A stretch of DNA of 45,583 nt from assembly GCF_004010195.1 (NCBI RefSeq), contig NC_057718.1:80101919-80147501 (forward strand), written 5' to 3'. Positions within the stretch are counted from its first letter, which is position 1. Each line of letters begins with the position of its first letter. Below are positions 6,128 to 41,610 of this stretch, one piece after another. Origin of the DNA: Chiloscyllium plagiosum. Its lineage: Eukaryota. Below the pieces are notes generated by a model that had not been told where the DNA came from, made no database searches, and saw nothing but the letters and a program-made list of their open reading frames with translations. Made by a program: the position numbers and the translations under genes.

Positions 6128-6473
6128 GAGGAGAAAGTGAAGGCTGCAGATGCTGGAGATCAGAGCTGAAAATGTGTTGCTGGAAAAGCGCAGCAGGTCA
6201 GGCAGCATCCAAGGAACAGGAGAATCGATGTTTCGGGCATAAGCCCTTCTTCAGGAATGAGGAAAGTGTGTCCAGCAGGCTAAGATAAAAGGTAGGGAGG
6301 AGGGACTTGGGGGAGGAGCTTTGGAAATACTATAGGTGGAGGGAGGTCAAGGTGAGGGTGATAGGCTGGAGTGGGGTGGGGGCGGAGAGGTCAGTAAGAA
6401 GATTGCAAGTTAGGAAGGCGGTACTGAGCTCGAACTCAGCACTGCCTTCCTAACCTGCAATCTTCTTCCTGAC
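6128..6473 (-). mobile_element. Penelope-like element terminus with inverted 5' end
   Basis: Near-identical to 12017-12166. Hammerhead-like core at 6227-6255; ends in a ~39 bp-arm hairpin at 6390-6473. Confidence 0.8.
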
Positions 6474-6589
6474 TTCATTTTGGAAATGAAACAGAAAGGA
6501 AATGAAAGAACTATAGGAACACATACTTACACAAGGTATCAATTGCCTCACACATTTTGTTCGTAGACCCAAATTTACATACTAAGGTA

Positions 6590-6770
6590 CAGTTAATTGT
6601 GAATGTATTTAAATGCAGGCAAACACAACAGCCAATTTGCACGCAACGACTTAAGGCAACCAACAGTTTAAATAAAATGAACCATATAATCTGTCTCTTG
6701 GCAATGTTGGTTGAGAAGCATTGGCCAGGACACGTAAAAAAATCTTTTCTTCAAATACAGGTTCTGAATT
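6590..6770 (-). mobile_element. Old Deu-domain (SacSINE1-like) SINE fragment
   Basis: CAGCCAATTTGCAC...TGTTGGTTGAG...TTGGCCAGGACAC, similar to 17360-17540. Family assignment from recall. Confidence 0.4.
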
Positions 6771-6805
6771 TCACAGGTTTTATTGATCAACACAGTGGTA
6801 GTGGT

Positions 6806-7007
6806 CAAGATTAAAGTGGTGCTGGAAAAGCACAGCAGGTCAGGCAGCATCTGAGGAGCAGGAAAATCGACGTTTCGGGCAAGAGCCCTTCATCATGAAG
6901 GGCTGAAATATCAATATTCCTGCTTCTCGGATGCTGCCTGATGCTTTTCCAGCACCACTCTAATCTTGACTCTGACCTCCAGCATCTACAGTCCTCACTT
7001 TCACTAA
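6806..7007. mobile_element. Fold-back mini-element made of two inverted PLE termini
   Basis: Arms are reverse complements centred on AGCCCTTCAT-C-ATGAAGGGCT (6884-6904). Flanked by the direct repeat AGTGGTAGTGGT (6794-6805 and 7008-7019). Confidence 0.85.
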
Positions 7008-7260
7008 AGTGGTAGTGGTAGTGATCTTTATGTTAGGAGACCTGGCTTCAAGTCCCACCTATTCCAGAGCTCTGTCATAATATCTGTCAACATATTGTAA
7101 AGGAAAATTGTGACAAGTTAATGGGGAAAGAAAGAAGGCATATTAGGTCGCTTGTGGTGAGTGGCAATATTCCAACTTTGAGCCAGGAGACCTGGGTTCA
7201 AGTCCCACCTGCTTCAGAGGTGTATAATATCATCTTTGAGCAGATTGATTGGAAAGCACA
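7008..7260 (+). mobile_element. Two short tRNA-head SINE copies (~7008-7095 and ~7145-7260)
   Basis: Both carry GGAGACCTGG(C/G)TTCAAGTCCCACCT (Pol III B-box-like GTTCAAGTCC). A reversed relative lies at ~9060-9165. Confidence 0.6.
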
Positions 7261-8104: not shown

Positions 8105-8458
8105 ACCTCCCTCCTAAACACCATCCGGTGGTTGGCACTGCTGCCTCACAGTGCCAGGGAATGGGTTCAATTCCAGCCTTGGACAACTGTCTGTGTGAAG
8201 TTTGCATGTTCTCTCCCTGTCTGCATGAGCTTTCTCCAGGTACTGAAGTTTCTACTCACAGTCCAAAGATGGGTGGATTGTATATGCAAAATTGTCTGGA
8301 GTAACTAGGAATGTGTAGGCTAGGTGGATTGGCTATAGCAAATATGGGTTTACGGGGTTAGGTGGGGGAGTGGGATTGGGTGAGATGTTCTTTGGAGGGT
8401 CAGTGTAAATTTAATTGGCCATATGGCCTCTACCTGCACTGCTGGGATTCTATGATTC
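8105..8458 (+). mobile_element. HE1-type V-SINE, diverged
   Basis: GTGGTTGGCACTGCTGCCTCACAG, B box GGTTCAATTCC, V-domain-like TGTGTGAAGTTTGCATGTTCTC, and a GATTCTATGATTC tail. Alignable to 36701-37011. Confidence 0.85.
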
Positions 8459-11841: not shown

Positions 11842-12080
11842 ATAATTTTAATGAGGATTATCATCCATTAAATCTGTTCAAACAGTTATCAGAATATGTG
11901 GGCTATAAACTGTTGTTGCAAGCTTAAACTTTAACTGGTGCTGTCTGAAAGGAAATGCAATGATCTTCACAGAGACATTACAATGAAGTGTGATAAATTG
12001 CAATGTATTTAAGATACTGAGCTGAAAATGTGTTGCTGGAAAAGCGCAGCAGGTCAGGCAGCATCCAAGGAGCAGGAGAA

Positions 12081-12111
12081 TCGACGTTTCGGGCATGAGC
12101 CCTTCTTCAGG
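12081..12111 (-). ncRNA. Minimal type-I hammerhead-ribozyme-like motif (best-preserved copy)
   Basis: Minus strand reads CUGAAGA-A-GGGC-UCAU-GCCC-GAAA-CG-UC, with all core nucleotides present and a palindromic ACGU at stem III. Stem I pairing is weak. Confidence 0.7.
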
Positions 12112-12166
12112 AATGAAGAAAGTGTGTCCAGCAGGCTAAGATAAAAGGTAGAGAGGAGGGACTTGG

Positions 12167-12522
12167 NNNNNNNNNNNNNNNNNNNNNNNNNNNNNNNNNN
12201 NNNNNNNNNNNNNNNNNNNNNNNNNNNNNNNNNNNNNNNNNNNNNNNNNNNNNNNNNNNNNNNNNNNNNNNNNNNNNNNNNNNNNNNNNNNNNNNNNNNN
12301 NNNNNNNNNNNNNNNNNNNNNNNNNNNNNNNNNNNNNNNNNNNNNNNNNNNNNNNNNNNNNNNNNNNNNNNNNNNNNNNNNNNNNNNNNNNNNNNNNNNN
12401 NNNNNNNNNNNNNNNNNNNNNNNNNNNNNNNNNNNNNNNNNNNNNNNNNNNNNNNNNNNNNNNNNNNNNNNNNNNNNNNNNNNNNNNNNNNNNNNNNNNN
12501 NNNNNNNNNNNNNNNNNNNNNN
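12167..12522. other. Assembly gap (N run)
   Basis: Run of n. Further gaps at 33041-33133 and 43310-43335. Confidence 1.
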
Positions 12523-13499
12523 GACCTGACAAGGGAGTCACGGAGGGAGTGGTCTTTTCGGAACGCTGATAGGGGAGGGGAGGGAAATATATCCCTGGTG
12601 GTGGGGTCTGTTTGGAGGTGGCGGAAATGACGACGGATGATACAATCTATATGGAGTTTGGTGGGGTGGTAGGTGAGGACCAGTGGGGTTCTGTCCTGAT
12701 GGCGATGGGCTCATGCCCAAAACGTCGATTCTCCTGCTCCTTGGATGCTGCCTGACCTGCTGCGCTTTTCCAGCAACACATTTTCAGCTCTGATCTCCAG
12801 CATCTGCTGTCCTCACTTTCCCCTCATGTATTTAAGATAGCAAAACAAAACAACTGTACAATAGAAATCATGGAAATAATAGCTCATTTGAAAAGTAAAT
12901 TCCAAATAGTGTGTCCAAATTGAGGCTTCTCTTCTTGGGCAGTTTTACTGGGATTGAACAGCAAATTGAGAGCGCTACATGCAGTTAATTGCCAACAACA
13001 TTGAGAGATGCACCAAAAAACATTGATTACTCATTCAGTTGCTATGTTGTTCAGAAACAATCAATAAGGTACTGAAAACATTGGGTGATACCAAAGTAGC
13101 TTATCAATAACTCTGCAATTTATTGAAGGATAACTAGAATAGAAAAGTGGTAAGGTTATGGAGAGAAGAAAGATGGACAAGAGAAGAGAATGAGAAAAAG
13201 GCTAAAAACATTAGATGTTAGAGTGGGAATTTTGTCTTTTGGCACTGCCAAAGAGGAATCTGGTTCAGTTCTCACAATCGTGCTTTTATTATTCTGGAAA
13301 ACCACAGGAGGAGAATTCTGATTACAGGCAGGGGAGAACTGATGCTTCTGATCCATCACCAAGAGTCAATAGTAATTCATGGAGCATCATTAATTATTCT
13401 CCCTATTCCATTTTAATGTCCAAGACAATTACAGTCACAGACTTTTATACTTATCAATTATGGACCTCTGTGGCATCTCACCAATAGCTGCACACAGAT

Positions 13500-13910
13500 G
13501 CATCATTCAGGTGATGCTGGTCAACTCATCATGAGCACAACTTACAGAACACCGCTAGCTCAGACAGCACTGGGTCCAGACCTTGATGTGGTCAGGTTGT
13601 GCTCTGCAACACGATCCTGCAAAGGCCTCAGTCATTGGTGTGGTCTCTGCGGTATGCATGGCCCCAAAATAGGGATAAAGCTTAGAAGGTCCTAAAAGGG
13701 GAAAACACATCGCGGAGAATAAGAGGTAAGAGTGATGCAATAACTGGAAGCAGATGGAGGTGATATTGAGCACTAAGGTATTGCTGCTGCAGCATGATGA
13801 GGTGGCCTCCTCTTGCCACCATCTGGAAAGCAGATCTCCCTCCACACCCTCTTGGGTACCAGCTTCCCTGTGCCATCTTGAGCCGATATTGTAGAGGCAG
13901 ACTTTGGCCC
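13500..13910 (-). pseudogene. Degenerate Harbinger Myb/SANT-like ORF relic(s)
   Basis: VWREICFPDGGKRRPPHH (~13795-13845) and RPHQ*LRPLQDRVAEHNLTTSR/WTQC (~13567-13650). Confidence 0.5.
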
Positions 13911-15409
13911 AAATCCCTTCCTCAGGCCATCAGTTATCTCAATGATGGTTGTGCTATTTTTCATTCTTTCTGCGACTAGTTTTAATTGGAAAAGTAACAC
14001 ATCTTCATATCATCCTGGGAAAATTCACAACTCAGTCAGTTCAGTTAGTGAGTTCCTGACAGTCGAAACTTTCTGCACATTAAGTTAGCTTCTTTAGTAC
14101 TCTAGTCATCCTTATTTTGATTTTTTTGAAATAACTATTTGTGGAAATAAAGAATGGATGGTTATTCTCATACAGTTAGATAAATTAAGGTGGAAGAAGG
14201 CTGCTTTGGAGCATAAACACAGACAATGAAAATTATGGGTAGATGGCCGAAATTCTCTGTCATGTAAATGACATCAAAATCCTTGCAACAAGAAACACAT
14301 TCCAACTCAAGGGTTTCTTCTTTCCTCAAGGAGATTTTAAAATTAAGATATGAAAATATTTACTTGTAAGTAATATATGACCTAGTGGTGCTTAATTCTG
14401 TCACCATCAGCAGAAATGGTATTGTATTTGTTACTAAAGGTTAAGTGGTTCACTTTCAGTTGTAAGGCTGTTTAATTTGCATTATTAGACCTAATGTTCC
14501 ATTTTATGCCATAATGTACTTCTAGCAGTAAATTAAGGTGTGACATTATAGTAAATTGCACAAGCGATTGCTTATATGTAATAAATGTCATTAATGGCAC
14601 ATATTTTCTGTCCAAAGTGCTTTACAGCTACAGAAAAGATAATTTCAAATCAGTTTTGGACAGCAACCTAAAACTTCTGAAAATAGAATGAAAATGGATT
14701 GCTTTTATCAAATTGAGGACATGCTAAAAGATCATTCAAACTGACTAATTTTATGACTTCACATTGTTCTGCATGGTCTAGCCATGTGTGAATGCGAGGA
14801 AAATTCAGATGTATGTTATTTATCTTTGTCCAATCAATAAACTTATGGTCATAATCATGTGTTGTGCATATCCAATTTTCTGGTGTGTTCCACTGATGAG
14901 TGAGATTTCTTACTGGAATTGTGAAGTCAGAAAATGATCCCTTTATCCCTGAACTCGGGTCATAAATATAAGATGGATACAAATAAATTCAATTGGAACT
15001 TTATAAGAATTTTTATTCCTCATAGTGAAGACAATGTGCAACTTGCTATCAAACAGAGTGGTTGAATTGTGCAGATGTATTTAAAGGGAAAACTTGATAG
15101 AAACATGAAGAATAGAAGATTATGCTGATATAGTTAGATAAAGTAAGATGGTGCATAAATACTGACATTGAAAATGATGGTCAGGTGGCCTGAAGTTTTT
15201 ATAATCTCAGCATACATCAGGTGCATTTTTGCGCAGTTTGACAAGATTGTATTCAGGACCATATATGCAAGATCTGTCTCATGGAAGAGCTGTGTAAATG
15301 TGCTTGATCTTGGTAGAGATAAGATTTCAAATTGACTTGGCACACCTGGTGTGCTACACAGAAGCAAAAACATCAAGTCCATGTTTATCTTATGTGGTTG
15401 ATCTTAAAT

Positions 15410-16730
15410 GGAGTGACACAGCATGAAAACAGACCTTTCAGTCCAACTCATCTGTGCTGACCAGACATCCTAATCTGACCTAGTCCCATTTGCCAGCATT
15501 TGGCCCAGATCCCTTTAAACCCTTTCAATTCATATATCCATCCAAATGCTTTTTAAATGTTATAATTGTACCTGCCTCCACCACTTCCTCTGGCAGCTTG
15601 ATCCATAAATGCATCACCATCTGCATAAATAAGTTACCCCTCAGGTCCTTTTTAAATCTTACCTCCTCTTGCCTGAAACATATGCCCTCTCATTTTGGAC
15701 TCTCCAACACAAAGAAACAGACCTTGACTATTCACCCTGTCCATGCCCTCATAATTTTATAAACCTGCATAAGGTCACCCCTCAGCCTCCATGCTTCAGG
15801 GAAAATAGCCTGAGCCTATTCACCCACTCCCCATAGCTCAAACCCTCCAACTCTGCAACACCTTTGTAATTTTTTTCCGAACCCTCTCAATTTTAACAAC
15901 ATCCTTCCTATAGAAGGGAGACCAGAATTATATGCATTATTCCAAAACTGGCCTCACTAATGTCCTGCACAGCCACAACATAACAATCCAACTCCTGTAC
16001 TCAATGTTTTGATCAATGAAAGCAAACATGCCAAACACCTTCTCTACCACTCTGTCTACCTGCGACTTCATTTTCAAGGAACTATAAACTTGCACCCCTT
16101 GGTCTCTATGTTATATTACTTGGGACCCTCCCATTAACTGCATAAGTCTGGCCCTGGTTTGCCCTACCAAAATGCAATAGCTCACATTTAACTAAATTAA
16201 ACTCCATCTTGCCATTCGTCCATCTGATTAAGGTCTATTGTGCTCTGAGATAATCTTCTTCACTGTTTACTACACCACCTATTTTGGTGTCATCTGCAAA
16301 ATTACTAACCATATCACCTATATTCACATCCAAATAATTTATAAACAACAAATAGCAGTTGATCCAGCACCAATCCAGTGGCATACCACTGGTCCAGCCG
16401 AAAAACAATCCTCCACCACCACTCCCTGTCTCGTACCTTCAAGCCAATTTTCTGTCCAACTGGCAAGCTCCCCCTGGATTCCATATGATCTAATATTACT
16501 AACCAGTCTAGCATGCGGAGCCTTCTTGAATGTTTTGCTGAAGTTCATACAGACAATGTATACTGCCTCGCCTTCATCAATCTTCTTTGTCACCAAAGAA
16601 CACAATCAAGTTAGTGAGACACGATTTCCCATGCACAAAGCCATGCTGACTATCCCCAATCAGTCCTTGCCTTTCCAAACGACTGTAAATTCTGTCCATC
16701 AGAATCTCCTCCAACAACTTACCCACAGGA
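15410..16730 (-). mobile_element. 5'-truncated CR1 LINE
   Basis: ORF 16339-16605 VTKKIDEGEAVYIVCMNFSKTFKKAPHARLVSNIRSYGIQGELASWTENWLEG.RQGVVVEDCFS is CR1 RT; the 3' UTR is at ~15410-15520. Confidence 0.92.
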
Positions 16731-17244
16731 TGTATAATTAAGTCCGCATATCAAACTTTATGGTAAGCAGCAAAACTATTTTCAAAAAATAATTTCCAAT
16801 TTGTGTTCCCTTTCTCTTCTGAAAGCAGAAACGCAAACAAGTGTGCAATTCTATGTGCCTTATTTATTGTCTGGGCACACCATGTTCATTTTTCATGTCT
16901 GACTAATTATTCTTTACCTATTATCTTCAAGTGTGAGAAACACCAAACCCCATGCAAAACTCAATGGACAGTCATCTATGTGCGAGTCACAAATACCGGT
17001 CCTAAAATTTCACATAATAAATATTGGGAATTTTTAATTATATCTTCACACTTGAAACCAGAGCATAGGGATTTGGATCTCAAAAATCCAGTTCACAAAA
17101 AGAAAACGTTAATTAAACAGGACAATCTTTTTCAATCACTTCAAGTTGTCCAAAACACTCATGACGTAGCTATGAAGTTAACATGTCTATTCGACAAATC
17201 AACACTGGTATAGTGAAAAACAAACTGTTGTAGTATAGACCAAT

Positions 17245-17335
17245 CCTGATGAAAGGCTATCAATTTAAAACATTAACACTGCCTCTCTCTCCATCTGCTG
17301 CCTCACTTGCTGGGTATTGCCAGCAATTTATATTT
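17245..17335 (+). mobile_element. Very old PLE terminus with decayed hammerhead-like core
   Basis: CCTGATGAAAGG...AAACATTAAC...TCTCTCCA..TGCTGCCTCACTTGCTG..TATTGCCAGCA, the same layout as 36600-36700 reversed. Confidence 0.6.
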
Positions 17336-17354
17336 TAAATATACTATAGTAGAA

Positions 17355-19924: not shown

Positions 19925-20090
19925 CAGGAGTGAAACTCCAAGTGAATCAACTGTGTTGGTGTGCGACTGGGGCTATCAACCAGATTGGTTAAGGAAAGCA
20001 CCTTTCCTTCCCTAAGGAACATTAATAAATCAGTTTGCTCTTAAGGATAATCTTTTAGCCTTATGACCATTTTCACCTATCATTATTAAT
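19925..20090 (-). mobile_element. Diverged SINE fragment (same family as 44940-45233)
   Basis: TTTCCTTCCCTAAGGAACATTAATAAATCAG aligns with TTTCCGCCCCTGAAGTACTTTAGTAAACCAG at ~45021. Confidence 0.5.
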
Positions 20091-20249
20091 TGAAAAATAG
20101 AATAATGCTGAAAAATAGAAATAGAGTCATAGACATGTACAGCATGGAAAGAGATCCTTCGGTCCAAACCAAAAATAGAAAATGCTGGAAATGCATAATA
20201 AGTCAGGCAGCATCTGTGGAAAGGGAAATAAAGTTAACAAGCAAAATTT

Positions 20250-27800: not shown

Positions 27801-29018
27801 CATTAAAACTAAAAAGCCACATGATATGAAACTAACTTGAGACAATAAGCTATCTCACTTAATCTATTGCTGGAGATAAAACAGTAAAGACATTTTTTAT
27901 TTCTAATAAACCTATCAGTGATTATAAATTCAAATATTTTAGTATTTGAATTGTATGCAGAGAAGCTACATTTATGCAATTCAGCTACAAATTAAACTCT
28001 CAGATATTTCTTACCATTTAATATGATTTATCTATAGAATATCTGTTGAAATTCCTACACTGGACTGGGAAATATATTCTGTGTATAGGTAAGGAAGTAA
28101 AGCTGGCAAAGTTTGATCAGTCTATTAGTAGCCAGTGCCTTCTCAAGTCCTTTCATTCCATAATAAAACATCCTTGTTATGTCTATTTTTTGTAACAAAG
28201 CCACCTAATAAACAGCAAACATGCTATTAGAAGAAAGACACAAATGAACACAAATCCTCCTTTCTGACAGCTGGTGTCAGAAAGCTGTCTCGCAGACTAG
28301 TCAACACTAATATAATCATATCTTACAGACAATGTCCCAGGCACCATTACCACCAGAGTGGCTGCACAGTGATATACAGTCAGGAGGGAGTTGCCCTGGG
28401 AGTCCTCAACATTGACTCCAGACCCTGTGAAGTCTCATGGCATCAGGCCAAACATGGGCAAGGAAACCTCCTACTGATTAACATGTCCTGACCTTCCTCA
28501 GTACTGCAGAAGGAGAATATTATCGAGGAATACCTACAAAGATGACCTGAAACTAAGATGCCTTATCTTTAACAACCACAACTCAATATTGGACATCCAT
28601 CAAAAACCTGCTCAATGATACCCAGCATGGATTCCACTAGGAACACACAGATCCTGACCTCATTTGGTTCAAACATGGACATGGTCTCAATTCAAGAGGC
28701 GAGGTAAGAGTGATTGCCCTCAACAACAAGGCTACATTTGCCTGAGTGTGGCATCAAGGAGTTCTAGCAAATCTGGAGTCAATTGGAATCAGGAAAAATC
28801 TCTGCTGGTTGGACAAAGTTAAAAATCACACAACACACATTATAGTCCAACAGGTTTATTTGAAAATACAAGCTTACAACTGATGCAATGTTTTAGACAA
28901 ACCTAGTTTGCTGTTTAGTCTTTAATCACTTAAAATGGGGATACAGGTTTTGATTGATTAATATGTAAATCCCAGAATTTCTTTCAAATCACAGCCCTGA
29001 GATAACTTTATCGGTATA

Positions 29019-30022
29019 CAGAACAACTTTGGCTTTCCAAACATCAATTATCTGAATTTCAGATTATCTGAACCAAATTCAAGGTCCCGTAAACATGTTA
29101 CATCAAAGAGGTGTTACCAAGACTGGTGTATTGATCACGATTGGGAAATCTGAGTGTATCAGCAAGGAGGCGATGAGTTGACTGCAACAGCATATGAGAT
29201 TTTAAATGATTTAATATTTATGGGTTGGGGCAGAGTGGGGATGTGGTTGGAAGGATGGTCAGAAGAGCATTTCAGTAATCAAACAATATTGCAAATGAAT
29301 GGATAGGATTTCACTGGTCTGAAATGGTGAGAGTATTGTCAGAATTGCGATGAGAATTTTGAATGATCTGTTTCAATTTGAAAGCTGGTGAATGAAATGA
29401 AATCAGGATGAGTGAGGAGTTTGTATTGGGTGATGAAAAGGCTGGTTTTGGTATTTGCAGGAAATTGTGATCAAACAAAATTGTCAAAAATGTCCATGTT
29501 TATTCAGTTGTAGCTAATTTTAAAATTAAAAATTACTTCGTTAGATATAATTATTTTGACTCTTATGCCTGCTGTGAGGCAAAATGTTCCGTCTAAAGTT
29601 ATATTCGTCCAAGATTGATAAAATTGACACCAACAATATACATTTAATAGATGTCTCATTTGAAGTATGCACGAAGCTGTGATTGGAGCAGTGCAACAAA
29701 GAAATACAAGCACTTCAAGCAACAGCAACTGGATATTTTCTTTGAAAAATAATAGCCAACATCCACCTCAATGAATTTTATTTACACAAAAAAGTGATTT
29801 TATTTGTAAAATATCATAAATTTTTAAGCTATATCCAGTGTTTGTACACGTTTTATCGACTGAATGAAATAAAAATTCTGTAAACATGATTTTTAATGTA
29901 ATTATGTTCAGTATGGCTTCCTTTGTTTACGACCAGATCAGACCAGATCAGTTATCTGAACAATCAGTTATCTGAACAAAATACTCCCCACCCATCTCGT
30001 TCAGATAATCAAGGTTGTTCTG
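29019..30022. mobile_element. Non-autonomous Tc1/mariner (Tigger/pogo-like) DNA transposon
   Basis: Terminal inverted repeat CAGAACAAC (29019) / GTTGTTCTG (30014-30022), TA on the left flank, repeated TTATCTGAA subterminal motifs at both ends. Confidence 0.75.
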
Positions 30023-30133
30023 TCTATAAAAAAAAGTGACATTTTAGCTCAGACAATGCATTAAAGGTGTGATGTTAGAGTCTGTATCCCAACCTGGAGT
30101 CAGACTGTTTTCAAAATAGAAATTTATAAAATG

Positions 30134-30365
30134 CAAGGATGCCTGCCTTGAAGAAGTTTTATTCTATGCTACTTTCTCCCCACCCCCCACCCTCCTTTCA
30201 CTTATCTCTCCACCCTTCAGGCTCTCTGCCTGTATTCCTGATGAAGGGCTTTTGCCAGAAACGTCGATTTTACTGCTCCTCGGATGCTGCCTGAACTGCT
30301 GTGCTTTTCCAGCACCACTCTAATCTAGACTCTAGTTTCCAGCATCTGCAGTCATTGTTTTTACC
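30134..30365 (+). mobile_element. Short PLE 3' terminus with hammerhead-like core
   Basis: CTGATGA-AGGGC-TTTT-GCCA-GAAACGTC at 30238-30265; flanking direct repeat TAAAATG at 30127-30133 and 30366-30372. Confidence 0.85.
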
Positions 30366-30472
30366 TAAAATGTCACATGGACTGACTGCCTACAGATTGT
30401 ATGCTTTTTGAACAAAATAGAATGTATCTGCAAATACAAATCTGCAAATGCAAATTGCCCCATAGACCTAGA

Positions 30473-30635
30473 TATGTGTGTGTCTGCATGCATGTGCGTG
30501 TGAGGGAGAGGGAAAGAATGTGCGCATGTGTGTGCGCGCGCATGCACGCATGTGTGCCTGCATGCATGCAAGAGTGTTTGTGTGCACCTCTGTGTGCTTG
30601 ATAGAGTCTGTGCGCGAATGTGACCGAGTGTACGC
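30473..30635. repeat. Degenerate (TG)n/(CG)n/(CA)n microsatellite
   Basis: Includes 40 nt of perfect purine-pyrimidine alternation at 30518-30557. Confidence 0.9.
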
Positions 30636-31704
30636 CTTGGAGTCATACTTGGCACAAAGGAAGATGTTTGTGATTGTTGGAGGTTAGTCATCTCAGTTCC
30701 ATGACATCTCTGCAGGAGTTCCTCAGGGTAGTGTTCTAGGCCTGACCACCTTCAGTTCCTTCATCAATGAACCTTCCCTCCATCATAAGATCAGAAGTTG
30801 AAAACTTCACTGGTGATTGCACCATGCTCAGCACCATTTATGACTCTTCAGATACTAAGGCAGTCCACGTTCAAATGTAATAAGACCTGGACAATACACA
30901 GGCATGGGCTGACAAGTAGCAAGTAACATTTGCACCACAATAATGCCAATTAGCATCTCCAACAAGAGAGTTGAACCATCATACCTTGACTTCAATGGCA
31001 TTACCATCACTGAATTACCCACTGCTGATATGGGGGGGGGGATGGTTACCATTGTCCAGGAACTGAATTGGATTAGCCTTATAAACACTGTGGTTACATG
31101 AGCAAGTCAGAGGTGAGGAAAAATGCAGCAAGTACCTCACCTCCTGACTTTCCAAGGCACAAGTCAGGAGTATGATGGAATACTCCCCACTTCTCTGGAT
31201 TAGTTCAAGACTAACAATACTCAAAAAGCTTGACACAATCCAGGACAAAACAGTCCACTTGATTGGCACCACATCCACAAGTACTCACTCACTCCAGCAT
31301 TGAGACTCTGTCGCAGCGGTGTGTACTATCTACAAGATGCACTGCAGGAATTCATCAAACATCTTAGAATGCACATTCCAAACCCACGACTCACTTCCAC
31401 CTCAAAGGCAGATACATGAGAACACCACCATCTGCAACTTTCCCTCCAAGCCACTCATCATCCTAACTTGGAAATTTATCATCATTCCTTCGGTGTCATT
31501 GGTCAAAAACCTGAGTTCCGTTCCGAAATACATTATGGGTGTACTGATAGCACATGGACTGCAGCGATATGAGAACACACCTCACAACTCTCTTCCCAAG
31601 GCAACTAGGGATGGGCAATAAATGCTGGTCCAACCAGCAACAGCCACACACCTTGAATAAATAAAAAATAATCCTCTCAAAAACTGTCCAATTTACACAA
31701 TGAA

Positions 31705-32172
31705 GTAGAGTTAAAGAGATGTATGTGTAGCATGGAAACAGGACCTTTGATCCAACTTAGCCATGCCAGCCAGATATCCTAAATTAATGTATCCCTTTTG
31801 CCAGCATTTGGCCCATATACCTGTAACCCTTCCTATTCAAATACCTATCCAGATGCTTTTTAAATGTTGTAATTGCATCAGCCTCCACCATTTCCTCTGG
31901 CGTTCATTCCATACGCCTTCTGCATGAAAAGATTGCCCCTTAGGTCTCTTCTAATTATTTCCACTCTCAGCTTAAACCTATGCCCTATAGTTTTTGACTC
32001 TCCCACCTAGGGGAAAAGACAATATCTACTTACCCTTTCCATATTCATCATGATTTTATAAACCTCTACATAAAGCCACCCCTCAACCGCCAACGCTCCA
32101 GGGAACTTAGCCCCAGCCTATTCACTCTGTCCCTGCAGCTCAAATCCTCCATCCCTGGCAACATCCTTACAA
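31705..32172 (-). mobile_element. CR1 3' fragment
   Basis: Alignable to 15410-15860 and to the reverse complement of 35930-36390. Confidence 0.88.
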
Positions 32173-32175
32173 GTA

Positions 32176-33860
32176 CAGTCATAGAGTCGTCGAGCTGTAC
32201 AGCACAGAAACAGACCCTTTGGTCCAAGTCGTCCATACTGACCAAATATTCCAAGCTAATCTAGTCCCATTTGCCAGCATTTAGCGTATATCCCCCTAAC
32301 CCCTTCCATATACCCATCCAGATGCCTTCTAAATTCTATAATTGTAACAGCCTCAGCTATTTCCTCTGGCAGCTCATTCCATACATGCACCACCCTCTGC
32401 GTGAAAAAGTTGTCCCTTGGGTCCCTTTGAAACTTTTCCCCTCTCACCCTAAACCTATGTCCTCTAGTTTTGGGTACCTCATTCCCCCATCTATTTACCC
32501 TATTCAGGCCCCTCATGATTTTAGAAAGCTCTCCATAAAGTCACAGCTCAGCTTCCGATGCTCCAGGGAAAACAGCCCCAACCTATTCAGCCTATCCTTA
32601 TAGCCCACACCGTCCAACCTTGGCAATATCCTTGTAATTCTTTTCTGAACCCTTTCAAGTTTCACAACATTGTTCCAACAGGAAGAAGACCAGAATTAAA
32701 CACAATCTTCCAAAAGTGGCCTCACCAATGTCCTGTACAGCCTCAACATGATATCCCAACTCCTATACTCAAAGCACTGACCAATAAAGTGAAGCATATC
32801 AAATGCTTTCTTCACCATCCTATCTACCTGAGACTCTACTTTTAAGGAACTATGAACCTGCACTCCAAGGTTTCTTTGTTCAACAACACTGCCCAGAACC
32901 TTACCATTAACTGGATTAATGAAGCTCCGGACTTGTCCTACCTGCCAATCTCCTTTTCCACCTATCCACTCCACCCTCTCCTCCCTGACGTATCACCTTC
33001 ATCCCCTCCCCCACTCACCTGTTGTACTCTATGCTACTTTNNNNNNNNNNNNNNNNNNNNNNNNNNNNNNNNNNNNNNNNNNNNNNNNNNNNNNNNNNNN
33101 NNNNNNNNNNNNNNNNNNNNNNNNNNNNNNNNNGCCTATCTCCTTTTCCACCTATCCACTCCACCCTCTCCTCCCTGACCAATCACCTTCATCATCTCCC
33201 CCACTTCACCTATTGACTCTATGCTACTTTCTCCCCACCCTCACCTTCCTCTAGCTTATCTCTCCACGCTTCAGGCTCTCTGCCTTTATTCCTGAAGAAG
33301 GGCTTTTGCCCAAAACGTTGATTTCGCTGCTCCTTGGATGCTGCCTGAACTGTTGTGCTCTTCCAGCACCACTAATCCAGAATCTGGTTTCCAGCATCTG
33401 CAGTCATTGTTTTTACCTTACCATTAACTGTATAAGTCCTGCCCTTATTTGCCTTTCCAAAATGCAGCACCTCACATTTATCTAAATTAAACTCCATCTG
33501 TCACTCCTCAGCCCATTGCCCCATCTGATTAAGATTGTGTTGTATTCTGAGGTAACCTTCTTCACTGACCACTATACTTCCAATTTTTGTGTCATCTGCA
33601 AACTTATTAACTGTACCTCCTATGTTTACACCAAATCATTTGCATAAATGATGAAAAGCAGCAGCACCTATCCTTGTGGCACACTGCTAGTCAGAGACCT
33701 CCAGTATAAAGGCAGCCCTTCACCACCACCCTCTGTCTTCTATCTTTGAGCCAGTTCTGTATCCAAATGATTAGTTATCCCTGTATTCCAACCTTGCTAT
33801 TTTGTCTACCATGAGGAACCTCAATATCTTTTCTGAAACCTTTCAAGTTTCACAACATCC
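32176..33860 (-). mobile_element. CR1 LINE 3' half, interrupted by a PLE
   Basis: ORFs give KTRGHRFRVRGEKFQRDPRDNFFTQRVVHVWNELP and EQRNLGVQVHSSLKVESQVDR...LYRTLVRPLLE. Confidence 0.92.
32914..33418 (+). mobile_element. Young PLE 3' terminus with hammerhead-like core
   Basis: CTGAAGA-AGGGC-TTTT-GCCC-AAAACGTT at 33292-33319; direct repeat ACCTTACCATTAACTG at 32898-32913 and 33415-33430. Confidence 0.85.
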
Positions 33861-34433
33861 TTCCTTCTTTTCGAGCTATCAATGCCAATTTGATTTTATC
33901 AATCTACATGAAGATTAAATCCACCATTATTAATACTGTACTTTTTTACATGCCCTCATTATCTCCTCATTTCTCAAGTGTTTTACAGGATAGTTATTGT
34001 TAGGGGACCTATTGATTGCTCTAACTGGTATCTCCTTCCTTTGTTATTTCTTCTGTTTAACCTGCATTTTCTGATTCTGCATCTTCCAATTCAAAATCAT
34101 AATTATTCAATTTGGTACTTACTCCGCCACCCTTCCCATCCTGCTGCCCTTCTGAAAAGTCACGTACCCCTGACAAATTAGTTCCAGGCTTTGATTTCTT
34201 CATAATCATGTCCCAGAAATTATGATAAGATCATACCCATTAACCTCTATTTGTACCTCATTAGTTCATCTGCTTTGTCCTGAATACTATGCACATTTAA
34301 GTGCTATTAACTTTGCCTATTTCCATTTCTCCCCCTTGGCCATATTTGCTCCTATTTCTTATATTTATCCATTCTGTCCCTTCTGTCCCACTCTAGGTAT
34401 TATTGCCCTGCAATGTCACTATATATTTTTACA

Positions 34434-34561
34434 CTTAAAAATCACACATCAGGTTATAGTCCAACAGGTTTATTTGGAAGTACAAGCTTGTTGGACTATA
34501 TCTTGGTGTTGTGTGATTTTTAACTTTGTCCACCCCAGTCCAACACTGGCACCTCCACATC
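34434..34561. mobile_element. Fold-back mini-element of the second PLE-related family
   Basis: TTAAAAATCACAC..CAGGTTATAGTCCAACA followed by its reverse complement TGTTGGACTATA...GTGTGATTTTTAA. Confidence 0.75.
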
Positions 34562-34621: not shown

Positions 34622-35316
34622 ATCTGCATGCAATCAGGTCCCGGACCTTCCTGTGGCTTGCCACTTCAACACACAATCCTGCTCCCATGCCCACATGTCT
34701 GTCCTTGGCCTGCTGCAAAGTTCCAGTGAAGCTCAACGCAAACTGGAGGAATAGCATCTCATCTTCCGACTAGGCACATTACAGCCTGCCGGTCTCAACA
34801 CTGAATTCAACAACTTCAGATGATTATCATAGCATGACCCCTCTGTTTTCATTCTGTTCCATAATTTTATTTTATTTATCCTTTTTTTAAAATATTTTTT
34901 TCACTGTTCTGTACCTCTTATTTCTTGATTGTCTCTCTTTCTCTCGCTCCCCACACTCTCATCACCTTTTTCCTCTCCTCTTCCCCCTTTGCTACTCTTC
35001 TCCCCTGTTTTCCATTTTGCCTCTGCTTCACCCATCTCCCCCATCCCTCACATATTTTGTCACATAGCACCGGCTTCCGCCTTGGTCATTCACAGCTCCT
35101 AATCTCCCCATAATCTCTCTATGCACTGTCATTATCACCTCTTTATTGCTACCTTTGCTTCTGGAGCCATGACTCACCTTCTCTCAGCCTAGTATAAATA
35201 CCTCCCTATTTCTCTAGCTTTGACAAAGGGTCAGTTAGACTCGAAATGTCAGCTCTTTTCTCTCCTTACAGATGTTGCCAGATCTGCTGAGATTTTCCAG
35301 CATTTTCTCTCTTTGG
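34622..35316 (+). mobile_element. Penelope-like element 3' end: GIY-YIG C-terminus, UTR and hammerhead-like terminus
   Basis: PDLPVACHFNTQSCSHAHMSVLGLLQSSSEAQRKLEE*HLIFRLGTLQPAGLNTEFNNFR* ending at ~34823, then TATAAATA at 35193 and the core at 35220-35250. Confidence 0.9.
35216..35254 (+). ncRNA. Hammerhead-like motif with U3-A8 variant core
   Basis: AGCU-[UUGACAA]-A-GGGUC-AGUUA-GACUC-[GAAA]-UG-UC-AGCU: 4 bp stem I and 5 bp stem II. Confidence 0.6.
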
Positions 35317-35465
35317 GTTCTTGAATTCATTTGATGAGCCGGTGTGTTCTTCTGTGAACATTTCGCTGTTTCACTAGGTGATATCATCACTGCATCTTTG
35401 GTAAGGTGTTGGTCATTTGTCCTGCCTAGAATTTATATGTCTCTGTTGGTACTTCATTTTTTGTA

Positions 35466-35555
35466 TGTGAGTGGCTTGCATACGGGATCCAGTTCAATGT
35501 GTCTATTGACTGTGAGTGGCTTGTATATGGGATCCAGTTCAATGTGTCTATTGAC
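35466..35555. repeat. 45 bp tandem duplication
   Basis: TGTGAGTGGCTTG(C/T)ATA(C/T)GGGATCCAGTTCAATGTGTCTATTGAC twice, with 2 mismatches. Confidence 0.95.
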
Positions 35556-35929
35556 TGAGTTCTGTTGGAGTGCCAGGCTTCAAGGAATTCTCTGGCGTGT
35601 CTCTGTTTTGTCTGTGTTAGAATGATTACATTGTCCCAATTGAATTTGTGTCCTTCATTGTCTGTGTGGTTGGAAATGAGAGTGTTGGTCCTTTCTGGCA
35701 GTGACGGGTTGGTGCTCGTGCACTCATATGGTCAGTTTTTTTCCAGTTTGTCCTGAGTAATATCTTTGTATGCTACCTTGTAGATAACATTCATCCTATT
35801 GAATGTGAGTCTTTAACCTAAGTGAGGAGCTGGTGGAAGGTGTTTACTGGTTTGTGGGCCACTAAGCTTCCCAGTGGTCTGAGTAGTCAGGTTGTTATCT
35901 CTGATATTTCTTTGTACAACTCTATGACT

Positions 35930-36390
35930 CTATTTACAAGGAAGTTGCCAGGGACAAAGGGTTTGAACTATGGGGACAGAATGAATAGGCTCGGTGTACT
36001 TTCCCTGTAGTGTTGGTGACTGAGGGGTGAATTTATATAGAGGTTTATAAAATCATGACGGGTATGGAAAGGGTAAACAGATAGGTCTTTTCCCCTAGCT
36101 GGGAGAGTCAAAAACTATAGGGCATAGGATAAACGTGAGAGGGGAAAAATTTAAAACGGACCCAAGGGGCAACCTTTTCATGCAGAAGGTGTCTGGAATG
36201 AGCTGCCAGAGGAAATAGTGGAGGCTGGTACAACATTTAAAAGACATCTGGATAGGTATGTGAATGAGAAGGGTTTAGAAGGATATGGGCTCAGTGCTGA
36301 CAAACAGGACTAGGTTTATTTAGAATGTCTGGTTGGCATAGATGAGTTGGACCAAAGGGTCCGTTTTCCTGCTGTCCATTCTTATGACTA
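35930..36390 (+). mobile_element. CR1 3' fragment
   Basis: FTRKLPGTKGLNYGDRMNRLG, KTIGHR..VRGEKFK, WNELPEEIVEAG and the 3' UTR. Confidence 0.9.
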
Positions 36391-36597: not shown

Positions 36598-38090
36598 GAA
36601 ATAAAAACATAAATTGCTGGAAAAGCTCAGCAGGTCTGACAGCATTTGCAGAGAGAAATGAGAGTTAATGTTTAGGGTCAAGTGACCCTTCCTCAGAACT
36701 AATTAGATTAGATTACAGTGTGGAAACAGGCCCTTCGGCCCAACAAGTCCACACCGACCCGCCGAAGCGAAACCCACCCATAACCCTACATTTACCCCTT
36801 ACCTAACACTACGGACAATTTAGTATGGCCAATTCACCTGACCCTGCACATCTTTGGACTGTGGGAGGAAACCGGAGCACCCGGAGGAAACCCACGCAGA
36901 CACGGGGAGAACGTGCAAACTCCACACAGTCAGTCGCCTGAGGCGGGAATTGAACCCGGGTCTCTGGCGCTGTGAGGCAGCAGTGCTAACCACTGTGCCA
37001 CCGTGCCGCCCACTATGGTAGCTAGGAAAACGTCAGTTTCTGTGCAGAAGATAGGGTGGAGGGCAGGGAGTAAGATGGAAACGATAGGTGGGGATAGAGC
37101 CCAAAGACAGAGAAGAACAGTTGTACAGATAAAGGAGTGGATAATGATCTGGCTAGAAGGGTGAATAGCTATTAATGGGGACTGTTAGTGGCTAACAATG
37201 AGTTGTGTGTAATAGCTGACCGTGTATTAACAAGACCTGATGAGTGGGGGTTAGAATAAGGACATGGGAGTGCTCAAGTCCTCAAGTTATTGAACTCAAT
37301 ATTGCCTCCCAGAGGCCTGCAAGGTCCCCAAGTGGGAAATTAGGTGTTGTTGTTCCAGCTTGTGCTGAGCTTCGCTGGCGCACCGCAGCAAGCCAGAGAC
37401 AGAGATGTTGGCCAGGGATCAGGGTGGTGTGTAGAAGTGGCAGGCAACGGGAAACTCAGAGTCTTTTTTGCAGACAGAACATAGGTGTTCTGCGAAGTAG
37501 TCATTTAGTCTCTGCTTTACTTCCCCCACTTTTGCTGCTTCATCTGGAAAGTATATTTGTGTCCTTGGATACTGAGGACTAAGGAAATAAATGGATAGGT
37601 GTTACAAGTTCTGCGGTTGCAGGGGAAGGTGCCATGAGGCTGTGGGAGTGTGTTGGAAATGAAGGAAGAGTGGACAAGGTTGGCCAGAGGGAACAGTCTC
37701 TGTTGAAGGCTAATGAGGAAGGGGAGAGGAGTATGTGTCTGATGGTGGCATCTTGCTGGAGGTGGCAGAAATGGAAACTAATGGTCCTCTGGATGTGTAT
37801 GTGGTGAGATGGTAGGTGACAATAAATGAGACCCTATTGCGGTTGCAGAAGGGAAGTGAGGGGGTAAGGGCTGAAATGCAGCAACGATGCTGGGGAGTCC
37901 TCAGTTGAGGAAGAAGATGGACATTTCGGAGACTCCCTCTTCAGTTGGCTTCATCGAAACAAATGCGAATGAGACGGAGGAACTGGGAGAATGGAATGGT
38001 GTCTCTACTAGAAACAGGGAATGAGGATGTTAGTCAAGGTAGTTAGTGAATATATAAACGCACTGACTCTCACAGTTACCTCAACTACAC
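36598..38090 (-). mobile_element. Penelope-like element (RT thumb-linker-GIY-YIG plus terminus) with SINE insertion and inverted 5' tip
   Basis: Minus strand DTIPFSQFLRLIRIC and GEVKQRLNDYFAEHLCSVCKKDSEFPVACHF...EAQHKLEQQHLISHLGTLQ; core CTGAGGA-AGGGTC-ACTT-GACCC at ~36672-36697; plus-strand YKRTDSHSYLNYT at ~38052-38092. Confidence 0.9.
36701..37011 (-). mobile_element. HE1-type V-SINE, young full-length copy
   Basis: 5' GGGCGGCACGGTGGCACAGTGGTTAGC (A box), GGTTCAATTCC (B box), V-domain GGGTTTCCTCCGGGTGCTCCGGTTTCCTCCCAC and (TAATC)n tail; CpGs retained. Confidence 0.95.
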
Positions 38091-38854
38091 ATTTTATGTG
38101 TATATTACCTCTACCGCTGCTGTAAGTGCTATTACAGGCAAGCTGTGTGAGACATTAAACATGTCACTTATCACAGATCTAACTGACCATGTATGCAGTC
38201 TTTGTGGAGCTAAGAATATTCTACTTGACTCAATATGCAGGGAGGTCTGCAGATGTTTATGGGACAGGCCAACTCGCAGATTCCATGAACTCTTCTCACC
38301 TAGGGAGTTGGAGAAGCCAAAATTAAAATTCCTGTTTTAAAACATAACAAGTTGCTGCTTAACGAAAATCTGCATCTTATCTCTGCTTCATTTGTCAGTC
38401 GCCTTAGATCTGTGTACCCTGGTTACTGACACTTCTGCTGCTGGAAACAGTCTCTCCTTATTTACTTGATTAAAATTTTTCTTGAATTTGAACATGATAA
38501 TTATGCTCTATGGAGAACAAGCCCAACTTTCAAATCTCTGCTTACAAATGAAGTTTTAGTTTTGATCCCAATTTGATAAATCTTTTCTGTGCCTCTGGAA
38601 AGTCCTGGTGCATATTGAGGAAGGTGGCATCATAGTGGTACTGTCCCTGGATTTGTAATCGAGCAGGCCCAGGCTAATGCTCTAAGCACATTGGTTCAAA
38701 TCCTATCATGACAGCTGGTGGAATTTCAGTTCAATTAACAAAATGTAAAACAATCTCAGTTATGGGGATTTTTTTCCCTTGGAGTGTTAGAGGCTGAGGG
38801 ATGACCTTATAGAGGTTTATAAAGTCACACCTGATGGTCATTGTATCTCTGCTA

Positions 38855-39535
38855 CAGCTTGAAAACATCAGATCCGAGATTATGGTTTACAGCGCTGTGG
38901 TGGCTCCTGACCTCCTATATGGCTCTGAAGCATTCACTGTCTATAGCAGACACCTCAAGGCGCTGGAGAAGTACCACCAACATTTCCTGTGTGAGCTCCT
39001 GTGAGATTTACTGGGAAGAAAGATGCACCAATACCAGCATCCTCAACTAGGCCAACATTTCCAGCATCGAGGCACTGACCACCATTGGTTGGCTACAATG
39101 AGCTGAGCACACTGTCCACATGACCACTACAAGATTTCCCCAAGCAGATGTTCTACTCCTAGCTCTGAGCCCAAGGTGGACAAAGGAAATGCTTCAGTGA
39201 TACCCTCAAGACCTTACTGGCAAGGTGCAGCATTCCCATGAACACCTGGGAATCACTTGCCCAAGACCGTCCAAAGTAGAGGAGGAGCATCCGAGAAGGC
39301 GTTGAGCACCTTGAGACTTGCCGTTGGGAAAAAGCAGAAGCAAGGCGAAAACAGCACAAGGAGCAGGCTACTATACAAACACCCCACCCATCCTATCCCA
39401 CAACCACCTTCTGTCCCAAATGTAACAGAGCTTACAGAAACCACAACGGTCTATACAGCCACCTACAGATTCACGCTGAGAGTGGAAGGGAGCTTTCTTT
39501 GTCTGCGAGGGACTACCAATAATGATGATGATGAT
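38855..39535 (+). mobile_element. RTE-BovB-like LINE 3' portion
   Basis: LLYGSEAFTVYSRHLKALEKYHQHFL, WEERCTNTSILN*ANISSIEAL, GGQRKCFSDTLK, TWESLAQDRPK*RRSIREG; (GAT)n tail at ~39522-39535. Confidence 0.9.
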
Positions 39536-39619
39536 ACTGCACTCTGAACACGTTAGAATTTCAGCGTAGTCCTTTTTGATGTCAGTAAATGAATTATGTA
39601 CTTGACTTTAGGCATCTTC

Positions 39620-41050
39620 AATTGCACTTTTGCATGCTTGGCGTCAGGTTTATCTGGAAAACTTTCTCCAGTAGTCACAAACAATTCTGATCATGATCTG
39701 TGATGGCTTCTTTCATTGTGCCTCCATATTGACAGACTAGCAAATCATCAATAATAGCCTCCATTCCAAGAAGGCTACTGACTATTTTTCTGTCAGTGTT
39801 GATGTGCTTTCATAGCATGAAAATGCCTAATGGCATGCACATGCACCTTTATCTTCCATGTGACACTGAGAATGTAGTTTAAAGAAATAAACTGCTGTTT
39901 TCATGCAATTTCACTTGCCATCAACTATCTTTTGCATCAAGTCATAAAGACCTTTGCCTTGGCAACTTGTAGCTGAAGCTCTTCAATAATTTACGTTGGT
40001 TAGTGGGTTCTTTTCAAAACTACATTGAGATATTTTAGATCTATGTACACTTGCAGTTTCCCAATTTTAACTGGTATTGTGATGCTTATCCAGTCTGTAG
40101 GAAGTGCCAATTTCTCAATTACGCCCCTCTTTTGCAGCTCTAGCATATTTTGTTTCAGAATGGATTGAAGGGCAGCAAAACCTTGCCCTTGGTGGATGCT
40201 GGAATGATTTTACACCAGCATCCATTTTGATATGCTCCTTACCAGAAATACATCCTATGAAAACATCTGTGTAATATTTTAGGATTTTTTCAGTGCTCAG
40301 TGGTTTGGGAGCCTGCAAAAAGCCTGAAAATCCTCTTCTGTCACATTGAGGGTTGCTAGCCCAGGTTTATCCTTCTTTAAGCTGAGATGAGCAGGTTTTA
40401 TTGACATCTACTATCTGGAACACCAGATCTTCATTATTCTCAATGTATTTGGCTCACAGCCTAATTTGCCCTTTTGGCAAGAGTATCTTTCCATTACATA
40501 GATACAACCTTATTTTTTGAAGATTCCAGTTTTGGGTCACCATCTTGTGGCACTTTGCCCAGGTTTGTGAAGATCATGATGATGAACACAACATTGGAGT
40601 TTATGTATCATTTTATGCTCTCCTCTGCAGTCACCATTCTCATAGTCACAAACCATTTATCACTTAATGAAATGATTAAACCATCCAGTGTATGGTGTAG
40701 AGTTGCAGACATGTCTCCAGCGGCCATCTTTACTGGCTTGGTTTGCTTTTTCCTGGCAAAGCACTTGTGTGCAGAGTGATTCAGCTTGTTACAATTACAG
40801 CACTGCTTTCCCCATGTTGAACATGCTTTCTTTTCTTTTATGTGATGTCTTTTGGAATGTTTACATCCTGCCCTCGGGCCTCAATCTTTCTGCTGTGTTT
40901 TACTGCAAGTATTTCTTTCTTTTTCCCTATCTGTTATTTTATTTAGTCAGAAATATTTCTCAGTGTAATGAAAAACTTTGTATGCTCTTCCATTAATACA
41001 AATTCAAGTTGATGATTAATAATCTGAGAGCTTCTGCATGTGTCAATAAC
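39620..41050 (-). mobile_element. Ty3/Gypsy internal region relic (gag knuckle, protease region, RT)
   Basis: WGKQCCNCNKLNHSAHKC (CCHC knuckle, ~40760-40815); PTDWIS...GKLQVYIDLKYLNVVLKRTH...IEEL...AKAKVF/TLDAKDS*WQVKL...TTF...GR*RCMCMPLG (~39825-40085). Confidence 0.88.
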
Positions 41051-41056
41051 TTTTTT

Positions 41057-41610
41057 GAGAAAGTTAAAAATCGCACAACACCAGGTTACAGGTTTATTTG
41101 TCAGCACTAGCTTTCAAAGTGCTGCTTCTTCATCGTGTGTTGTGAAACAGGACCATAAGACACAGAATTTATAGCAAAGGATTACAGTGTCATGTAGCTG
41201 AAATGGTGTACTGAACAAACCGAGATTAAGTCTTTCATCGTTTAGAATGGTTTTGTTAGTTTCGGTTCTTTAATATGTAAATCCTAGAACTTCTTTTAAA
41301 TCACATTATCAAGATAGCTTAAGGTTTTATAATGAAAGATGCCATCTCAGTTTAAACAATGCATTAAAGGTTTGAGGTTAAAGTTTGTATCCCAATCTTG
41401 AGTCAGACTGGTTCTATTTCTAAAGTGGAATTTACACAATATTACATGGATTTGACTGCCTGTAGGCTATGTATTTTTTGAGCAAAATAGAATGTATATG
41501 TAAATATAATTCTTCAACTATAAATTCACCCCTTAAACTTATGTATGCATGCAAGAGAGAGAGAAACAGACTGAGTGTGTGCGTGTGAGTGTGAGTGGAT
41601 GTGAGAGTTT
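41057..41610 (-). mobile_element. PLE-related terminal repeat, second family
   Basis: Collinear with 28811-30636; decayed core GATGA-AGAAGC-AGC-ACTTT-GAAAGCTA on the minus strand at ~41107-41136. Confidence 0.7.

What the first reader, a model, noticed from the sequence alone, without database searches (positions are those of the whole stretch)
6227..41136. Hammerhead-ribozyme cores in the termini of several distinct Penelope-like families
Seen: about ten intact-to-decayed copies of CTGANGA-A-[stem II]-GAAA-NN-TH, at 6227(-), 6869(-), 12081(-), 12706(+, partial), 17247, 30238, 33292, 35220, ~35360(-), ~36672(-) and ~41110(-). Stem II changes sequence but stays paired in the better-preserved copies: GGGC/GCCC with loops UCAU, UUAU, UCUU, UUUU; GGGUC/GACCC; GGGUC/GACUC. 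Three copies lie downstream of GIY-YIG coding remnants. Established: PLEs carry minimal hammerheads with a palindromic, near-absent stem III that cleave as dimers. Inference: this genome carries a very high density of (ex-)self-cleaving motifs that could cut host pre-mRNA. An extra A before stem II and a weak stem I make monomer activity doubtful.
Basis: partly seen in the sequence, partly recalled or inferred. Interest (0 to 1): 0.7.

Follow-up and report, generated by a model that had tools for sequence, protein, structure and literature searches.

The report
Shark Penelope ends carry decayed hammerheads
These are the end-pieces of Penelope-type jumping genes in shark-like DNA, carrying an already described tiny self-cutting RNA motif that is intact in only one of eleven copies here and is likely left uncut in most host RNA, so the finding is ordinary apart from a hint about where the element's RNA starts.

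Summary
The motifs are real. They are the published minimal type-I hammerheads of Penelope-like element (PLE) ends; the 'extra A' is part of the published consensus. Neptune-type and Poseidon-type RT/GIY-YIG remnants lie upstream of four copies. Four inserts have target-site duplications, and copy ends differ by the known 30-40 bp tail. Stems I and II covary between families. All 11 copies span the cut site, so they were copied from uncut or religated RNA. In public data, junctions pile up 3-4 nt before the motif at an initiator-like site, not at the cut; poly(A) reads show no step at the cut on either strand. Host pre-mRNA cutting is not supported. Cleavage was not tested. The scan has reported this often on other DNA (323 notes, at least 28 genomes). 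Verdict: new member of a known kind, low interest.

The parts
6128..6467 (-). Family A1 PLE end: mirror-image 5' end (6396-6467), 3' UTR, hammerhead, long tail
   Evidence: 96.6% identical to 12019-12166 over 148 nt; hairpin seen
6227..6254 (-). min-HHR, 11 of 11 core bases, stem III palindrome broken by CpG-type change
6806..7007 (.). Mirror pair of family A3 stubs joined at the hammerhead; 12-nt low-complexity direct repeat at 6794-6805 and 7008-7019
6869..6896 (-). min-HHR with C3>A; its + strand partner (6889-7004) lacks the first box and half of stem II
12017..12825 (-). One Neptune-type insertion: inverted stub + ORF remnant + N gap + UTR + hammerhead + short tail; 14-nt target-site duplication at 12003-12016 and 12826-12839
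12083..12110 (-). The only fully intact min-HHR; predicted cut between 12083 and 12082; initiator-like site with A at 12114
   Evidence: junction pile-up at 12113-12114
12522..12710 (-). PLE ORF remnant just before the Cys linker
   Evidence: 91% identical over 55 aa to P0001, E 1e-23
12704..12825 (+). Inverted stub starting in stem II, G12>A, long tail
17246..17340 (+). Decayed family D hammerhead and tail
20169..20236 (-). Tail-only stub that begins within about 3 nt of the predicted cut
28810..30476 (-). Old family B element with nested insertions; an internal deletion removed the first box and stem II
   Evidence: four blastn pieces against 41040-41600
30134..30365 (+). Family A2 end, hammerhead 30238-30265 with G10.1-C11.1 lost; 7-nt direct repeat on both sides
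32914..33416 (+). Family A2 end, hammerhead 33292-33319 with G12>A; 14-nt target-site duplication at 32900-32913 and 33417-33430
   Evidence: its upstream part matches the C-terminal extension of PLE protein P0002 at 13 of 16 residues
34434..34532 (.). Family B mirror stubs centred on the stem III palindrome (34484-34489)
34623..35320 (+). Neptune-like endonuclease C-terminus (34623-34820), 400-nt spacer, hammerhead 35220-35250 with U3-A8, tail
   Evidence: tblastn E 8e-18
35357..35765 (-). Poseidon-like endonuclease remnant (35514-35765) and hammerhead relic 35357-35390, 124 nt downstream
36601..38030 (-). Neptune-type RT end, linker and endonuclease remnant (37212-38030), UTR with a SINE-like insert (about 36700-37010), hammerhead 36667-36696 with G12>U
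   Evidence: tblastn E 6e-28
41055..41560 (-). Family B end: about 420-nt upstream segment, hammerhead relic 41108-41136, AATAAA-bearing tail; no coding remnant found
3128..3214 (+). Very decayed relic of the family A hammerhead-tail unit
   Evidence: nhmmer E 1.3e-4

Best explanation
These motifs are mostly decayed copies of the minimal type-I hammerhead at the ends of Neptune- and Poseidon-type Penelope-like retrotransposons, likely able to cut only inside the element's own RNA-protein complex and likely left uncut in most host transcripts. Steps: (1) shown: the motifs sit in PLE ends, downstream of GIY-YIG remnants, in inserts with target-site duplications and mirror-image 5' ends. (2) Inferred from the Anolis PAc work: reverse transcription starts inside the RNA at one of two sites downstream of the ribozyme; this fits copy ends at 63-66 nt (2 copies) or 97-100 nt (4 copies) past the cut. 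(3) Follows from anatomy: all 11 copies run through the cut site, so their templates were uncut or religated. (4) Inferred: copying stops either in the UTR/ORF (8 of 11 copies here) or at the RNA 5' end, which the junction pile-up at 12113-12114 likely marks as a transcription start 3-4 nt before the first box. (5) Shown in part: selection kept the fold in the active lineages (compensatory changes between families), while inserted copies decay at CpG sites (about 10% at each of G12, C11.1, 15.2 and 16.2 among young copies). (6) Untested here: cleavage needs a partner motif (the 4-nt palindrome) and probably the PLE protein.
For: PLE identity: (RVT_1 and GIY-YIG in relatives; the Cys linker is visible in P0002, P0004 and P0012 and absent in P0015; the linker marks Neptune/Nematis). 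Match to the published consensus including the bulged base and the U3-A8 variant. Covariation: 83.3% of 72 cells paired against 15-50% in slid controls, 7 cells with both sides changed, 0 of 500 shuffles as high. Variation among 40,765 laid contigs: loop II, N7 and tail positions vary; of 11 core positions only G12 is listed, as a CpG-type change. No monomer hammerhead fold predicted. RNA depth 1307, 1230, 1112 in the bins before, across and after the cut, strand ratio 1.16, 1.17, 1.10, no place where many molecules begin or end. Published: min-HHR monomer inactive and dimers weak; the PAc ribozyme cuts only with protein, is dispensable for insertion in vitro, and no RNA-seq ends were found at its cut.
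Against: No cleavage assay. Covariation rests on 8 related rows, the double changes come from 2-3 of them, and one measure (further pair types, 7 vs 9.2) fell below every shuffle. U3-A8 at 35220 could be two decay events (G8 follows C7, a CpG), not a family trait. The drop in depth at 12115 is partly due to subfamilies with different UTRs. 14 difference rows and 176 loose-end rows were not shown. Some junctions do fall on the cut: 40 RNA reads of one junction at 30266 and one contig at 12082. Poly(A) libraries under-sample 5'-OH products, and only about 2% of run X21 was read. Families B and D have no coding remnant in the window.
Confidence: 0.83

Rival explanations
1. The dispersed motifs cut host pre-mRNA at a meaningful rate (as dimers between neighbouring copies or in trans with element RNA) and so shape host expression or insertion orientation.
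For: Very high abundance: 40,765 contigs laid on 122 nt and 11 sites plus relics in 45.6 kb. About 59% of young DNA copies and 64% of RNA reads would keep five CpG-prone positions if changes are independent. Tandem retrozymes are depleted from Xenopus introns.
Against: 10 of 11 copies here are changed; dimer duplex of the 4-nt palindrome is only -1.7 kcal/mol; RNA reads cross the cut on both strands with no step; no host gene shown here.
Confidence: 0.07
2. The short hammerhead-plus-tail units are a self-propagating non-autonomous (retrozyme-like) family that is cut to unit length by the ribozyme.
For: Mirror stubs with their own target-site duplication; retrozymes are reported as PLE derivatives, including in one chondrichthyan.
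Against: No tandem arrays here; unit ends do not coincide with the cut; 8 of 11 copies carry UTR or ORF sequence upstream.
Confidence: 0.06
3. The motif is kept for a non-catalytic job (internal promoter or protein-binding element), and cleavage is vestigial.
For: The motif starts 3-4 nt after the junction pile-up; Drosophila Penelope has an internal promoter; cleavage is dispensable in vitro for PAc; Naiads thrive without it.
Against: Both catalytic boxes, stems I and II and the palindrome are kept across unrelated families; C3/G8 swap rescue was shown for PAc.
Confidence: 0.12

Closest known systems
Minimal hammerheads (min-HHR) in pLTRs of metazoan PLEs (Cervera and De la Pena 2014, PMC4209133; parts 1-2 of 4 and supplement part 2 of 3 read)
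   Same: Type I topology, CUGANGAH, G10.1-C11.1, GAAA-NN-UH palindrome, 2-5 bp stem I, thousands of solo copies, opposite-strand pairs, U3-A8 variant.
   Different: No shark is named in the parts read or in the searched supplement file (file 1 not searched). Stem II here is 4-5 bp, at the short end.
Poseidon element PAc of Anolis (Frangieh et al. 2024, PMC11167929; parts 1-2 of 4 read)
   Same: Copies end at two sites downstream of the ribozyme, about 33-36 nt apart here; RNA reads cross the cut.
   Different: Most families here are Neptune-type; no ORF start inside the motif was shown here; nothing here was assayed.
EN+ PLE clades Neptune/Nematis and Penelope/Poseidon (Craig et al. 2021, PMC8557442; passages read)
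   Same: C-terminal GIY-YIG, Cys linker in the Neptune-type relatives, inverted 5'-truncated copies, 30-40 bp tail.
   Different: No tree was built, so Neptune versus Nematis was not separated; no full-length copy lies in the window.
Non-LTR retrozymes (Li et al. 2026, 10.64898/2026.07.22.740005; part 1 of 5 and passages read; supplements closed)
   Same: PLE-derived type I hammerheads in vertebrates, one chondrichthyan sampled.
   Different: Those are tandem arrays with a ribozyme in each unit; these are dispersed single or mirror copies.

Membership tests
PLE min-HHR | CUGANGA and GAAA boxes with UH cut triplet | tested here: met
   11 of 11 core bases in 3 of 11 copies; U3-A8 in 1; 1-3 changes in the other 7
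PLE min-HHR | Unpaired base between 9 and 10.1, and G10.1-C11.1 | tested here: met
   Bulged base in all; G-C in 6 of 8 aligned copies
PLE min-HHR | Palindromic 15.2-16.2 with no stem III | tested here: met
   CG or GC in 6 of 11; CA or TG (CpG-type change) in the other 5
PLE min-HHR | Short stem I with compensatory changes | tested here: met
   4 bp in 35220 and 36696, 2+1 bp in family A; two pairs change on both sides; few rows
PLE min-HHR | Location in a PLE terminal repeat | tested here: met
   Downstream of PLE coding remnants for 12110, 35220, 35390, 36696; not shown for families B and D
PLE min-HHR | Self-cleavage as dimer or with protein | not testable with these tools
   Only indirect read data
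EN+ PLE | RT followed by C-terminal GIY-YIG | tested here: met
   Pfam RVT_1 plus GIY-YIG in P0004 and P0015, which match the window remnants; the remnants alone had no Pfam hit
EN+ PLE | Inverted 5'-truncated copy and optional 30-40 bp tail | tested here: met
   12704-12825, 6889-7004, 34434-34532; ends 63-66 versus 97-100 nt past the cut
Neptune clade | Cys linker between RT and EN | tested here: met
   Present in P0002, P0004, P0012 and partly at 37535-37693
Neptune clade | RT phylogeny separating Neptune from Nematis | not tested
   No tree built
Non-LTR retrozyme | Tandem units each with a hammerhead | tested here: not met
   Nearest same-strand neighbours are 642-5214 nt apart, with no array
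Rfam hammerhead families | Match to a curated covariance model | tested here: not met
   No hammerhead among 7 matches at E<=10

The most novel reading that the evidence does not exclude
The ribozyme sits at the very front of the element's capped mRNA (start at 12114, cut 32 nt later) and is switched on by the element's own protein, so cleavage removes the cap and silences that mRNA: a self-limiting switch. Uncut RNA makes nearly all DNA copies, and the rare junctions exactly at the cut record cleavage in living cells.
Probability: 0.25. Interest if true: 0.65.

Novelty: new member of a known kind. Interest (0 to 1): 0.24.

Why it matters
As it stands it extends a known PLE feature to shark families; six literature searches listed no paper on shark PLE hammerheads, but subscription journals are mostly not held and one preprint sampled a chondrichthyan. 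What the PLE hammerhead does is still open. The huge copy number makes copy ends a record of the RNA template, and 12083-12110 and the 35220 family give ready constructs for testing protein-assisted cleavage in a Neptune-type element.

Tried and rejected
No whole genome is held, so no genome-wide count. Rfam found no hammerhead. Pfam on 290 of 343 stop-to-stop frames of 48 aa or more found only LINE-type or weak hits and no host gene; short exons are not excluded. A tail pattern gave 0 loci in metagenome contigs and one unrelated chance match in viral contigs, L001. No RNA holder was listed for 17400-27300. Run X22 laid 0 reads, so it is no test. Only 13000-32999 was laid for host transcription; unique bins had about 0 depth in X21, which was read to about 2%. 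Summed contig depth was not used as a copy number. The first offsets for four copies were wrong and were corrected. The 10-row alignment A1 misplaced the B and Poseidon rows, so pairs were counted on 8 rows. The 28875 copy first looked cut-site-truncated but is an internal deletion. The first box at 12696 is borrowed from the inverted ORF and was rejected. Lunse et al. 2016 is not held; it is cited only through a review passage. Whether U3-A8 is the 35220 family consensus stayed open (searches found no notes).
Full report
Setting. The window is 40% G+C, has three N gaps and is dense in repeats. The nearest named proteins to its PLE remnant are from Chiloscyllium punctatum (91%), Rhincodon typus and Hypanus sabinus, so it is likely shark DNA. 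No whole genome is held. No host gene was found: Pfam on 290 of 343 frames gave only an esterase-like LINE ORF1-type hit, ALKBH8_N, a weak zinc finger and noise, and unique parts of 13000-32999 had about zero RNA depth in run X21 (306 reads laid, about 2% of the run read).

Observation. All 11 named sites exist. After fixing registers, one is fully intact (12083-12110, minus strand). 6254 has every core base but a broken palindrome. 35220 has U3-A8, a 5-bp stem II and a 4-bp stem I. The other eight lack C3, G12, the G10.1-C11.1 pair or a paired stem II. A strict descriptor finds 3 sites against 0.105 expected, with 0 of 200 shuffles reaching 3. Profile searches add five relics or stubs. Rfam has no matching model.

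What they belong to. tblastn with 15 relatives places PLE coding remnants at 12522-12710(-), 34623-34820(+), 37212-38030(-) and 35514-35765(-). Relatives carry RVT_1 and GIY-YIG. The first three match proteins with a Cys linker, which marks Neptune/Nematis; the fourth matches P0015, which lacks it (Poseidon-like). The motifs lie 400 nt (35220), 124 nt (35390) and about 600 nt including a SINE-like insert (36696) downstream of the endonuclease remnants. Target-site duplications of 14, 14, 12 and 7 nt flank four inserts. Mirror-image 5' ends occur at 6396-6467, 6806-7007, 12704-12825 and 34434-34532. Copies end 63-66 nt (two) or 97-100 nt (four) past the predicted cut, a gap that fits the 30-40 bp optional tail. 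Families B and D have no coding remnant here, so their PLE status is inferred from motif and mirror structure.

Is the fold under selection? Between six family representatives, core bases are 81% identical (134 of 165) against 31% upstream and 29% downstream; two representatives were found through the motif, which biases this. On 8 Neptune-like rows, 83.3% of 72 cells pair, 5 of 9 pairs change on both sides, and slid controls give 15-50%. Against this, the rows are related, few carry the changes, and further pair types were below all 500 shuffles. In 40,765 contigs of DNA run X1 laid on 12045-12166, listed differences fall on loop II (86% at one base), N7, the tail and the UTR; the only core base listed is G12 (10%), and C11.1, 15.2, 16.2, 17 and 1.1 change by 5-12%, all at CpG (14 rows hidden). 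This fits selection in active lineages and neutral decay after insertion.

Does it cut? Folding predicts stem II firmly but stem I at 0.2 or less except for 35220, and the palindrome duplex is worth -1.7 kcal/mol. Published min-HHRs are inactive as monomers and weak as dimers; the Anolis one needs the PLE protein and is dispensable for insertion in vitro. All 11 copies span the cut, so their templates were uncut or religated. Of 1,236 partly laid X1 contigs, the largest junctions to unrelated DNA are at 12113 (90) and 12114 (105), with agreement 0.33 and long flanks; the cut site is not among the six rows shown, the smallest of which has 24 (176 rows hidden). X21 shows 79 reads loose at 12114 and depth falling from 426 to 168 across 12114/12115, partly because subfamilies differ upstream. 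Position 12114 is the A of a TCATTC, which resembles an initiator (consensus recalled, not from a call); Drosophila Penelope has an internal promoter. In the window itself only 2 of 11 copies (6896, 17246) start near that point. RNA depth shows no step at the cut on either strand and no pile-up of ends (1,409 reads). Results pointing the other way: 40 X21 reads of one junction start exactly at 30266, the first base after the predicted cut, and an X23 contig starts there too; one X1 contig turns at 12082; the 20236 stub starts within 3 nt of the cut. These few events could be chance among many junction positions.

Comparison. They are not tandem retrozymes. Papers seen: PMC4209133 parts 1-2 of 4, supplement file 2 searched and part 2 of 3 read, file 1 not searched; PMC11167929 parts 1-2 of 4; 10.64898/2026.07.22.740005 part 1 of 5 and passages, supplements closed and possibly listing shark families; passages of PMC8557442, PMC6155905, PMC6765202 and PMC2377424; Lunse et al. 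2016 not seen. Earlier scan notes report the same family type and the same 5' pile-up many times; I saw the pile-up before reading, and their U6-fusion claim was not tested here.

Verdict. Real, known and mostly decayed. PLE min-HHR membership is met on every feature that could be tested; cleavage was not testable. Host pre-mRNA cutting is unlikely (about 0.07). Interest 0.24.

Noticed in passing
window 28810-28875(-), run X21: Family B tail holds an AATAAA; 17 and 13 reads carry poly(T) loose ends at 28840 and 28843, so this family can supply a poly(A) site to transcripts (at some locus, not necessarily this one). 24 reads run on through a family B hammerhead with a shortened stem II.
   Followed up: partly
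window 30266, runs X21 and X23: One expressed junction (40 reads, agreement 1) joins unrelated sequence to the family A2 tail exactly at the predicted cut; genomic or RNA-level origin unknown.
   Followed up: partly
window 34484-34489 and 28870-28875: A mirror junction and an internal deletion both end at the same base of the family B stem III palindrome, 6 nt before the cut.
   Followed up: no
window 35220-35226: U3-A8 core variant, as published for Schistosoma; family consensus not checked.
   Followed up: partly
window 35250-35390: A Neptune-type end (+) and a Poseidon-type end (-) abut tail to tail.
   Followed up: no
window 8128-8429, 36700-37010, 41652-41979: Three copies of a tRNA-SINE-like repeat (recalled as the shark HE1 SINE; not tested); one is inserted just before the 36696 hammerhead.
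   Followed up: no
window 28-690(-), 15418-16750, 31729-33865, 35916-36378, 22083-22424, 39280-39519: LINE-type remnants: esterase-like ORF (Pfam OSK/GDSL_2), repeated 3' pieces, ALKBH8_N and C2H2 hits.
   Followed up: no
window 30134-30163: About 30 nt of other sequence precede the A2 UTR inside the 7-nt direct repeat; possibly a template switch.
   Followed up: partly
window 45327-45583: A 124-nt stretch repeated with 100% identity at the window end; possibly an assembly artefact.
   Followed up: no
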